Source: an uncultured Candidatus Saccharibacteria bacterium
Lineage (GTDB): Bacteria; Patescibacteriota; Minisyncoccia; Sungbacterales; SURF-37
Direction of reading: 5' to 3'
NCBI GenBank assembly: GCA_964373495.1
Contig: CAYJUW010000001.1
Coordinates: 1 to 36,197, forward strand
Length of the DNA: 36,197 nucleotides
Made by a program: the position numbers and the translations under genes
Part shown: positions 17,988 through 18,129 of the stretch, one piece after another
How the letters are laid out: each line of letters begins with the position of its first letter
Numbering within the stretch: the first letter of the stretch is position 1
Notes under the pieces: generated by a model
Database searches by the model: none
What the model was told of the DNA's origin: nothing
What the model saw: the letters and a program-made list of their open reading frames with translations, nothing else

Positions 17988-18129
17988 CCGCACCGCACGC
18001 GGTGCGGTATCGGATTCGAGAGACCCTTCGACTTCGCCACGCCGGGCGTGGCTCGCTCAGGGTTATTGTTCGTAGCTGCCATTCATCCCGCCCGCAGAGC
18101 GGGCGGGTATTCTGGCAGACGAACAATAA
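17988..18129. repeat. Three-hairpin structured element, diverged copy A (candidate ncRNA or MITE-like element)
   Basis: Hairpin 1 is CCGCACCGC/GCGGTGCGG. Hairpin 2 is GCCACGC/GCGTGGC. Hairpin 3 is TTATTGTTCGT..CTGCC-ATTCAT-CCCGCCCGC-AGA-GCGGGCGGG-TATTCT-GGCAG-ACGAACAATAA. Confidence 0.8.

What the first reader, a model, noticed from the sequence alone, without database searches (positions are those of the whole stretch)
17988..18129. Diverged third copy keeps the same fold through compensatory base changes while an internal loop stays invariant
Copy A differs from B/C at many positions, but the stems are preserved. The hairpin 3 outer stem is TTATTGTTCGT/ACGAACAATAA in A and TTATTGTTTGT/ACAAACAATAA in B (a T:A to C:G change). 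The next stem is CTGCC/GGCAG versus CCGCC/GGCGG. The apical stem is CCCGCCCGC/GCGGGCGGG versus CCGCGCCGC/GCGGCGCGG, with three pairs swapped. The hairpin 2 inner stem is GCCACGC/GCGTGGC versus GTCCCGC/GCGGGAC. The unpaired ATTCAT and TATTCT strands of the internal loop and the hairpin 1 stem are unchanged. Read on the minus strand (the gene strand), the loop is purine-rich (AGAAUA/AUGAAU), which is more typical of a structured RNA motif. Conservation of pairing rather than sequence argues for selection on a folded nucleic acid, either RNA or single-stranded DNA.
Basis: partly seen in the sequence, partly recalled or inferred. Interest (0 to 1): 0.8.

Follow-up and report, generated by a model that had tools for sequence, protein, structure and literature searches.

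The report
Miniature IS200/IS605 transposon ends, not RNA
The repeated three-hairpin element is a gene-less miniature copy of an IS200/IS605-type jumping gene, and its covarying stems and constant "internal loop" are the folded single-stranded DNA signals the transposase reads, so it is real but of a known kind.

Summary
The window, a contig from a relative of Candidatus Sungbacteria (Patescibacteria/CPR), holds copies A, B and C on the minus strand. I found a fourth copy on the plus strand (34353-34504) and a broken left end near 20722. Across 20 distinct versions from genomes and metagenomes the stems covary strongly.

The element is not a new structured RNA. It has the anatomy of IS200/IS605 transposon ends. 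Hairpin 3 is the left-end hairpin and hairpin 1 is the right-end hairpin. The last four bases of the 5' loop strand (AATA) are the guide. By the IS608 pairing rule they predict the cleavage/target site TTAT. TTAT lies 14-19 nt upstream in 119 of 131 instances, against a 2.9% background. At right ends, guide and cleavage site change together (AATA/TTAT, GATA/TCAT, GATG/TCAC, AGTA/CTAT, AATG/TTAC).

An intact 539-nt element (L136) has this same left end, a 123-aa Y1 transposase gene and a matching right end. Decayed copies keep transposase remnants. Orientation relative to genes is random, copies sit at contig ends, and syntenic relatives lack them.

Verdict: gene-less IS200/IS605 mini-elements (PATE-like), a new member of a known kind. 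No transposase gene was found in the window.

The parts
17988..18129 (-). Element A, a gene-less mini IS200/IS605-type element. The body is 18125->17988 and the flanking target/left cleavage site TTAT is at 18129-18126.
   Evidence: left-end core 18076-18118, 66.6 bits on the minus strand against 10 bits antisense. The expected right cleavage site TCAT is absent at +5..+8 after hairpin 1, so this copy may be immobile.
18087..18107 (-). A: left-end hairpin (IP_L), CCCGCCCGC-TCT-GCGGGCGGG. This is the apical stem of 'hairpin 3'.
18108..18113 (-). A: 5' loop strand AGAATA. Its last four bases, AATA (18111-18108), are the proposed guide G_L, which predicts the cleavage site TTAT.
   Evidence: IS608 rule from PMC3201880. 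TTAT lies 18 nt 5' of the hairpin foot. Statistics.
18081..18086 (-). A: 3' loop strand ATGAAT. Its first two bases, AT, occupy the position of the triplet-forming bases A+42/T+43 of the IS608 left end.
18063..18080 (-). A: 3' arms of stem 2 (GGCAG) and of the outer stem (ACGAACAATAA). They pair with 18114-18129, which includes the TTAT site itself.
18024..18062 (-). A: internal hairpin 2, with outer CCC/GGG and inner GCCACGC/GCGTGGC. This is the variable middle module.
17988..18011 (-). A: right-end hairpin (IP_R), CCGCACCG-CGTG-CGGTGCGG at 18007-17988, preceded by the guide G_R GATA at 18011-18008.
18134..18173 (-). Intrinsic terminator of the upstream gene (18197-18616). Its T-tract supplies the TTAT insertion site of A.
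   Evidence: ATCGGGCAG...CTGCCCGAT followed by T7.
19891..20035 (-). Element B. Body 20031->19891, TTAT at 20035-20032, IP_L 20013-19993, IP_R 19918-19899, right cleavage site TCAT at 19894-19891 (+5..+8).
   Evidence: 63.4 bits. It follows terminator 20037-20066.
28694..28847 (-). Element C, 99% identical to B. TTAT at 28847-28844, IP_L 28825-28805, IP_R 28730-28711. The nearest TCAT is at 28697-28694, which is +14..+17 and therefore atypical spacing.
34349..34504 (+). Element D/E, the fourth full copy, on the plus strand. TTAT 34349-34352, G_L AATA 34367-34370, IP_L 34371-34391, IP_R 34475-34495 with G_R AATA, and TTAT at 34501-34504 (+6..+9).
   Evidence: 58.2 and 26 bits.
20709..20726 (-). 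Truncated left end (TTAT plus TGTTTGTCTGCCAG) placed after terminator 20733-20755. The rest is disrupted by other nested palindromic repeats.
   Evidence: (family D4).

Best explanation
The 140-150-nt repeats are non-autonomous, gene-less derivatives of an IS200/IS605-family insertion sequence. They are PATE/MITE-like: a left end plus a right end with a short variable middle.

How it most likely works:
- These elements move as single-stranded DNA by 'peel and paste', catalysed by a Y1 HUH transposase (TnpA). The active strand is the window's minus strand for copies A-C.
- TnpA recognises the shape of a subterminal hairpin at each end. Hairpin 3's apical stem is IP_L and hairpin 1 is IP_R.
- TnpA does not read the cleavage sites itself. 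The four bases 5' of each hairpin foot (the guide; AATA in the 5' loop strand AGAATA) pair with the cleavage site.
- The cleavage site is TTAT. It is the target at the left flank, and the last bases of the element at the right end.
Stems can change as long as they stay paired. The loop strands (the guide, plus the AT just 3' of the foot) are held constant.

Shown here: the anatomy, the covariation, the guide/cleavage-site rule, and intact and decayed relatives that carry tnpA.

Inferred: that the window copies are, or were, mobilised in trans by a TnpA encoded elsewhere in the genome. The 99% identity of B and C at unrelated loci suggests recent movement.

Insertion just after terminators follows from the TTAT target, which lies within terminator T-tracts.
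For: 1. Intact autonomous relative, L136:
- TTAT | 19 nt | AATA | CCGCCCAGC-TCT-GCTGGGCGG | ATGAAAACAGG ... a 123-aa tnpA (Pfam Y1_Tnp) ... AATG | CCCCGCAGC-TCT-GCTGCGGGG | TAAT-TTAC | T.
- Its left end has the same stem 2, GAATA/ATGAA loop and 9-bp GC hairpin as the window's hairpin 3.

2. Decayed copies with transposase remnants:
- L098 has the same left end, a 44-aa TnpA C-terminal remnant (Y1_Tnp, E = 9.5e-8) and a right end.
- L132 and L133 have remnants next to right-end hairpins.

3. IS608 pairing rule (C2:G1 and C1:G2 from PMC3201880; C4:G4 from its TTAC/AAAG pair and from memory of Barabas 2008):
- G_L AATA predicts TTAT. TTAT ends 14-19 nt 5' of the foot in 119 of 131 instances and in 20 of 23 distinct stems. 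Background is 2.9%.
- At right ends the rule holds at +5..+8 in 13 of 17 distinct elements. Shuffled guides give a mean of 3.6, and 0 of 20,000 shuffles reach 13.
- An uncrossed rule fits 6 of 17 and an antiparallel rule fits 0 of 17.
- Guide/site pairs seen: AATA/TTAT, GATA/TCAT, GATG or GAAG/TCAC, AGTA/CTAT, AATG/TTAC.
- Four intact ISs (L128-L131) have left ends with GATA and TCAT 17-18 nt upstream.

4. Geometry resembles IS608 (left 19 nt, right 10 nt). Here it is left 15-19 nt and right 8-9 nt.

5. Behaviour of a mobile repeat:
- Many matches lie at contig ends.
- Orientation relative to neighbouring genes is random: 29 same against 36 opposite for the upstream gene.
- Other hairpin repeats are nested inside some copies.
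- Copies diverge right after the predicted right cleavage site.
- Syntenic corA-dnaK-dnaJ loci of two relatives (DnaK 84% identical) have no copy.

6. Strand specificity:
- The covariance model scores 58-67 bits on the sense strand against 10-17 bits antisense.
- The hairpin loop, which the search patterns did not constrain, is TCT or TTT on the sense strand in 61 of 66 unique cores.

7. Stem covariation.
Against: - No tnpA is present in the 36-kb window or in the seven Patescibacteria loci examined. A partner transposase in this organism is therefore assumed, not shown.
- The intact and decayed relatives with tnpA come from unassigned metagenome contigs. Close homologues of the transposase remnant are labelled Nitrospirales or Chloroflexota, not CPR.
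- Right ends of window copies are imperfect. A lacks TCAT. C has it at +14..+17. B has the guide TATA where GATA is expected. D/E is offset by one base.
- The long outer stem that pairs the TTAT site into the hairpin has no described role in IS608.
- G.T wobbles (18) outnumber A.C mismatches (11) only slightly, so the mismatch pattern does not by itself name the folding strand.
- Actual transposition was not observed, and no exact empty site was recovered.
Confidence: 0.85

Rival explanations
1. It is a structured non-coding RNA, either a small RNA gene or a cis-regulatory or 3'-UTR element transcribed from the gene strand. On this reading the AGAAUA/AUGAAU internal loop is a protein- or ligand-binding 3D motif.
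For: - The RNA folds are very stable (z = -7.5 and -8.5).
- All four window copies are co-oriented with the local genes.
- Stems covary.
- IS200 left-end transcripts are known to give regulatory small RNAs in Salmonella (abstracts listed), so a secondary RNA role is conceivable.
Against: - No Rfam family matches at gathering score, and the best hit has E = 0.53.
- In the larger sample, orientation relative to flanking genes is random.
- Copies sit after terminators with no conserved promoter.
- Neighbouring genes are unrelated.
- Syntenic relatives lack the element.
- The loop sequence is fully accounted for by the guide/cleavage-site rule and occurs as the left end of an intact transposon.
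Confidence: 0.06
2. It is a REP/BIME-type repeat processed by a domesticated REP-associated tyrosine transposase (RAYT), not a derivative of a true IS200/IS605 insertion sequence.
For: - REPs are also GC-rich hairpins with a conserved 5' tetranucleotide, and they lie after genes.
- Y1_Tnp/RAYT-like genes occur in two metagenome loci that carry the dominant repeat family: L028 8846-9805 and L045 995-1492. The L028 gene lies about 40 nt from a copy.
Against: - The elements have distinct left and right ends in direct orientation rather than inverted REP pairs.
- Their guide and cleavage sites follow the IS608 rule.
- Intact and decayed copies carry an IS200-type tnpA between those same ends.
- The L045 RAYT gene is flanked by a different inverted repeat.
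Confidence: 0.07
3. It is an integron attC recombination site, folded as single-stranded DNA and recognised by an integron integrase, marking the ends of gene cassettes.
For: - It has a hairpin with an unpaired internal spacer and covarying stems.
- It lies after small genes of unknown function.
Against: - The outer stem starts with ...GTT and ends with AAC..., the reverse of the attC R''/R' arrangement (RYYYAAC ... GTTRRRY, from memory).
- No integrase gene was found among the window proteins scanned.
- The spacing of 1.9 and 8.8 kb includes housekeeping genes.
Confidence: 0.01

Closest known systems
IS608 (Helicobacter pylori) and the IS200/IS605 family
   Same: - Subterminal GC-rich hairpins at both ends, read on one strand.
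- A four-base guide 5' of each hairpin foot that pairs in the crossed IS608 manner with a cleavage site whose third base is A.
- A left cleavage/target site about 15-19 nt 5' of the left hairpin, and a right site a few bases 3' of the right hairpin.
- AT directly 3' of the left hairpin foot.
- No terminal inverted repeats.
- Relatives encode a 110-130-aa Y1 HUH TnpA.
   Different: - The window copies carry no gene.
- The target is TTAT rather than TTAC.
- The right-end spacing is 8-9 nt rather than 10.
- In the Patescibacteria sub-family, the left flank including TTAT is paired into an 11-bp outer stem with sequence 3' of the hairpin.
PATEs (palindrome-associated transposable elements) and PATE-like minimal IS200/IS605 elements, as in Haloquadratum walsbyi (PMC3119063, listed) and Geobacillus stearothermophilus (PMC10055086)
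   Same: Short, gene-less elements made of IS200/IS605-type left and right ends, multicopy, and presumed to be mobilised in trans.
   Different: - Those described often derive from tnpB-carrying elements and may encode omega RNAs.
- The relatives found here are IS200-type with tnpA only. No TnpB or omega-RNA signal was seen.
- The host is a Patescibacteria (CPR) bacterium.
REP/BIME sequences with RAYT (TnpA-REP)
   Same: Intergenic GC-rich hairpins with a conserved 5' tetranucleotide, recognised as single-stranded DNA by a Y1 HUH enzyme. Stem covariation between copies.
   Different: - REPs come as single or inverted pairs, without left/right-end asymmetry.
- This element shows IS-type ends and tnpA remnants inside related copies.
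Integron attC sites
   Same: Function as folded single-stranded DNA. Structure is conserved more than sequence, and there is an unpaired spacer between stems.
   Different: No R''/R' core sites, no integrase, and the conserved bases lie in the loop rather than in the stem.

Membership tests
IS200/IS605 family (non-autonomous derivative, PATE-like) | Subterminal hairpins at both ends on the same strand, with no terminal inverted repeats | tested here: met
   - IP_L (hairpin 3 apex) and IP_R (hairpin 1) are both 8-9-bp CC...GG stems on the same strand in A, B, C and D/E.
- The loops are T-rich on the same strand at both ends in related elements.
IS200/IS605 family (non-autonomous derivative, PATE-like) | The guide tetranucleotide 5' of the hairpin foot pairs with the cleavage site (IS608 rule: C2:G1, C1:G2, C4:G4, with C3 = A) | tested here: met
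   - Left ends: AATA predicts TTAT, found in 119 of 131 instances against a 2.9% background.
- Right ends: 13 of 17 obey the rule against 3.6 expected, with five different guide/site pairs.
- Within the window: the left ends of A, B, C and D obey it. Right ends: B has TCAT in place but its guide reads TATA where GATA is expected, D/E is offset by one base, and A and C do not obey it.
IS200/IS605 family (non-autonomous derivative, PATE-like) | Insertion 3' of a fixed tetra- or pentanucleotide, without target duplication | tested here: inconclusive
   TTAT always abuts the left end, and copies diverge right after the right cleavage site. No exact empty site was recovered, so the absence of a duplication is inferred only.
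IS200/IS605 family (non-autonomous derivative, PATE-like) | A Y1 HUH transposase (TnpA, Pfam Y1_Tnp) encoded between such ends in autonomous members | tested here: met
   - L136 is intact, with a 123-aa TnpA between a left end identical in design to the window's and a rule-obeying right end.
- Remnants occur in L098, L132 and L133.
- Not met inside the window itself: no tnpA there.
IS200/IS605 family (non-autonomous derivative, PATE-like) | Mobility: copy-number and site polymorphism, and movement through single-stranded DNA with a lagging-strand bias | tested here: inconclusive
   - B and C are 99% identical at unrelated loci.
- Syntenic relatives lack copies, and matches lie at contig ends.
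- The replication-strand bias could not be tested. GC skew changes sign together with gene strand near 33 kb.
REP/BIME with RAYT | Single or inverted REP hairpins with a conserved 5' tetranucleotide, and a single-copy RAYT gene flanked by REPs | tested here: not met
   The arrangement is direct left end/right end. The RAYT-like gene in L045 is flanked by a different repeat. There is no RAYT gene in the window.
Integron attC | R''(RYYYAAC)...R'(GTTRRRY) core sites, extrahelical bases, and a nearby integron integrase | tested here: not met
   The outer stem reads TTATTGTT...AACAATAA, the reverse polarity. No integrase was found among the scanned proteins.
Any curated RNA family (Rfam 15) | A covariance-model match at the gathering score | tested here: not met
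   Only two tRNAs are found in the window. The best hit on the element is RAGATH-28 at 18 bits against a 45.3-bit cut-off, E = 0.53.

The most novel reading that the evidence does not exclude
In the Patescibacteria sub-family the mini-element may have been co-opted. The extended left-end hairpin pairs the TTAT site into an 11-bp outer stem and always sits directly after a host terminator. It could act as a terminator reinforcement or insulator, or give a stable small RNA (as the IS200 5' end does in Salmonella). Alternatively, it could be moved by an unrecognised enzyme, since no tnpA was seen in any CPR contig examined.
Probability: 0.1. Interest if true: 0.5.

Novelty: new member of a known kind. 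Interest (0 to 1): 0.25.

Why it matters
- It removes a false lead. A striking case of 'structure conserved, sequence not' with an invariant internal loop is transposon-end biology, not a new RNA class.
- It shows that IS200/IS605 mini-elements populate the small genomes of Patescibacteria and many sediment and groundwater bacteria, and that they break metagenome assemblies.
- The natural covariation between guide and cleavage site across uncultured lineages independently supports the pairing rule that was worked out on IS608.
- Annotators can use the core pattern (TTAT, 15-19 nt, AATA, a 9-bp GC hairpin, then AT) to mask these repeats and to predict insertion sites.

Tried and rejected
- Rfam at gathering and at E <= 10 found nothing relevant.
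- An exact look-up of the window's DnaK found no contig. A homology search later placed the window near Candidatus Sungbacteria.
- Clustering all ORFs of 127 loci for a protein recurrently linked to the motif gave only generic families and no transposase. The link to tnpA came instead from a remnant inside L098.
- tblastn probes recalled from memory (IS608 TnpA, E. coli RAYT) led to Y1_Tnp genes in L028 and L045. These are not bounded by the motif.
- The attC idea was rejected on core-site polarity and the lack of an integrase.
- The target-site-duplication idea (TTTAT at both ends) was rejected. The right-hand TTAT varies with the right guide, so it belongs to the element.
- A variant in L006/L073 (AAGAAC|hairpin|TGAATT) did not fit the rule and was left aside.
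- GC skew could not separate replication strand from gene strand.
- G.T against A.C counts gave no clear strand signal.
- No exact empty site was found. Only syntenic loci without the element were recovered.

Full report
**1. Checking the observation**

The window holds three copies of a roughly 140-nt element: A at 17988-18131, B at 19898-20037 and C at 28710-28849. B and C are 99% identical. A is 60% identical to them in ungapped register.

Both strands fold into the three hairpins far better than shuffled controls. The z-scores are -7.5 and -8.5 as RNA on the minus strand, and -8.6 as DNA on the plus strand.

B and C are effectively one sequence, so the window alone offers only a two-way comparison. 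More copies were needed to test the claim.

**2. More copies inside the window**

A covariance model of the hairpin-3 core, run with filters off, finds four full matches:
- A at 66.6 bits.
- B and C at 63.4 bits each.
- A fourth on the plus strand at 34360-34402, at 58.2 bits.

A hairpin-1-like partner lies at 34475-34498 (26 bits). The antisense strand scores only 10-17 bits.

A truncated left part (TTAT plus TGTTTGTCTGCCAG) lies at 20709-20726 and is interrupted by other palindromic repeats.

On the minus strand, A, B and the truncated copy each start directly after the T-tract of an intrinsic terminator.

**3. Copies elsewhere**

The core pattern GAATACC-hairpin-GGATGAA was found in 7 contigs from six genomes, one genome per species. 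All six are Patescibacteria/CPR: Saccharibacteria, Chisholmbacteria, Taylorbacteria, Parcubacteria and an unclassified Patescibacteria group bacterium. About 0.07 matches were expected by chance (my estimate from database size).

Most of these contigs (five of seven) show the same outer stem, stem 2, loop and apical hairpin as the window. L007 also has the window's hairpin-1 stem.

Many matches lie at contig ends, which is what multicopy repeats do to assemblies.

One family of about 215 nt dominates freshwater-sediment samples. It is a chain of hairpins, and some copies have other hairpin repeats nested inside them.

The window itself is a 36,197-nt NCBI contig. Its DnaK is 84% identical to proteins labelled Candidatus Sungbacteria.

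**4. Covariation**

I tested 20 distinct versions of the 43-nt core:
- 93.9% of cells pair, against 69.0 +/- 2.0% in shuffles (0 of 500 shuffles reach it).
- 10 of 14 pairs show changes on both sides.
- Sliding the partners by 1-3 columns drops pairing to 39-51%.

The search patterns fixed the loop strands and four stem pairs. Only the remaining positions count as independent evidence.

The claim of compensatory change is confirmed.

**5. What does not fit an RNA gene or a regulatory RNA**

- No Rfam family matches.
- Neighbouring genes are unrelated.
- In the large sample the element points with or against its neighbours about equally. For the dominant family the upstream gene is on the same strand in 29 cases and the opposite strand in 36 (using a crude gene caller).
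- Two relatives share the corA-hrcA-grpE-dnaK-dnaJ-PMT gene order with the window. Neither has a copy anywhere in about 12 kb. In the window, elements C and D/E sit within that region.

**6. The anatomy matches IS200/IS605 transposon ends**

In IS608, TnpA binds a subterminal hairpin at each end. The cleavage sites are read by the four bases 5' of each hairpin foot, called the guide.

The crystal-structure pairs are C-3:G-35 and T-4:A-34, so the first two positions cross over. The third base of the site (A) stays unpaired. The left site TTAT-equivalent in IS608, TTAC, lies 19 nt 5' of the left hairpin. The right site, TCAA, ends 10 nt 3' of the right hairpin. The two bases 3' of the left hairpin foot are A and T (PMC3201880). 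The fourth pair (C4:G4) follows from TTAC/AAAG and from my memory of Barabas et al. 2008.

Applied to this element:
- The 5' loop strand AGAATA ends in AATA, which predicts the site TTAT.
- TTAT ends 14-19 nt 5' of the foot in 119 of 131 instances and in 20 of 23 distinct stems. Background is 2.9%.
- The 3' loop strand begins with AT.

At right ends the guide varies between families, and the bases at +5 to +8 after the hairpin vary with it: AATA/TTAT, GATA/TCAT, GATG or GAAG/TCAC, AGTA/CTAT, AATG/TTAC.
- 13 of 17 distinct right ends obey the rule. Shuffled guides give a mean of 3.6, and 0 of 20,000 shuffles reach 13.
- An uncrossed rule fits 6 and an antiparallel rule fits none.
- In the dominant family, copies diverge one base after the predicted TCAC.

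**7. Direct link to a transposase**

- L098 carries the core as a left end, followed by a 44-aa open reading frame that matches the C-terminus of Pfam Y1_Tnp (E = 9.5e-8, above the curated cut-off). A right end follows whose guide AATG matches TTAC at +5..+8.
- Homologues of that remnant include many truncated copies and more than a hundred full-length 110-132-aa IS200-type transposases.
- Four intact elements (L128-L131) have left ends with guide GATA and TCAT 17-18 nt upstream. Where the right end is intact (L129, L130) it has guide GAAG or GATG followed by TCAC.
- The closest full-length relative of the remnant lies in L136, in an intact 539-nt element. Its layout is TTAT | 19 nt | AATA | CCGCCCAGC-TCT-GCTGGGCGG | ATGAAAACAGG, then tnpA, then AATG | CCCCGCAGC-TCT-GCTGCGGGG | TAAT-TTAC | T.
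- The L136 left end has the same stem 2, loop strands and 9-bp hairpin as the window's hairpin 3.

**8. Interpretation**

The window's repeats are gene-less mini-elements made of an IS200/IS605 left end, a short variable middle (hairpin 2) and a right end. This is the kind called PATE or PATE-like in Haloquadratum and Geobacillus.

The stems covary because the transposase reads hairpin shape. The 'internal loop' is constant because it holds the guide and the adjacent bases needed to position the cleavage site. In the wider family that loop strand does change, in step with the cleavage site.

The position after terminators follows from the TTAT target lying in T-tracts.

The near-identity of B and C at unrelated sites, together with the absence of copies at syntenic sites in relatives, suggests recent movement.

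**9. Limits**

- No tnpA lies in the window or in the seven CPR loci.
- The elements with tnpA come from unassigned metagenome contigs.
- Window right ends are imperfect. A has no TCAT. C has it at +14..+17. B has guide TATA where A and C have GATA. D/E is offset by one base. Some copies may be dead.
- The outer stem that pairs TTAT has no known counterpart in IS608.
- No exact empty site was found.
- The replication-strand bias could not be tested.
- Mismatch types do not clearly name the folding strand. The unconstrained loop is TCT or TTT on one strand in 61 of 66 unique cores, which does point to strand-specific recognition.

**10. Verdict**

The element is a new member of a known kind: a non-autonomous IS200/IS605 element in a Patescibacteria genome. 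Interest is modest, at 0.25.

Noticed in passing
window 1856-1887, 10652-10683, 24710-24741 (perfect copies); 10050-10081 (variant): A 32-nt perfect palindrome, AATACTTAAATACTGTACAGTATTTAAGTATT, occurs three times, plus one 88% variant, in intergenic positions. It could be an operator for a dimeric regulator or another small mobile palindrome.
   Followed up: no
window 3847-3881, 20610-20645, 28181-28215; related long hairpin around 20530-20680; L004 locus 6420-6550: A second hairpin family, CCCCGTTAGA...TCTAACGGGG. A related pair, CCCCGTTACAA...TTGTAACGGGG, is nested inside the 3' loop strand of a left end in L004 and inside the broken left end near 20.6 kb. It looks like another mobile palindromic element that inserts into the first.
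   Followed up: partly
window 28945-29238 (-): A 97-aa GIY-YIG nuclease gene lies between dnaK and element C. The syntenic dnaK-dnaJ region of two relatives lacks it, so it may itself be mobile.
   Followed up: partly
window 33385-33419 and 33997-34031, flanking 33422-33979 (+): A PaaX_M (Cas2-like domain) gene is bracketed by 35-nt inverted repeats that are 77% complementary. The corA upstream region is about 680 nt here against 109-143 nt in relatives. This suggests several insertions at the locus.
   Followed up: no
window 28850-28895 and 18024-18062; L045 1500-1580; L005: A motif of the type CCCTGAGC...GTCGAAGGG recurs in hairpin 2 of copy A, in the hairpin next to copy C, and in unrelated metagenome and CPR loci. 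It is possibly yet another widespread small repeat.
   Followed up: no
L008-L127 (freshwater sediment and groundwater contigs): A composite element of about 215 nt and five hairpins, with the same left-end core and a GATG/TCAC right end, is extremely abundant and often ends contigs. Some copies carry nested hairpin insertions. Close homologues of the associated transposase remnant are labelled Nitrospirales and Chloroflexota.
   Followed up: partly
L028 8846-9805; L045 995-1492: Two Y1_Tnp proteins of RAYT-like type occur in genomes carrying the dominant family. One is 319 aa with a long C-terminal extension. The L045 gene is flanked by its own, different inverted repeat.
   Followed up: partly
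window 18197-18616, 19326-19688, 20095-20463, 20756-21262 (-): A run of small genes with signal-peptide-like N-termini and no Pfam match lies between the element copies.
   Followed up: no
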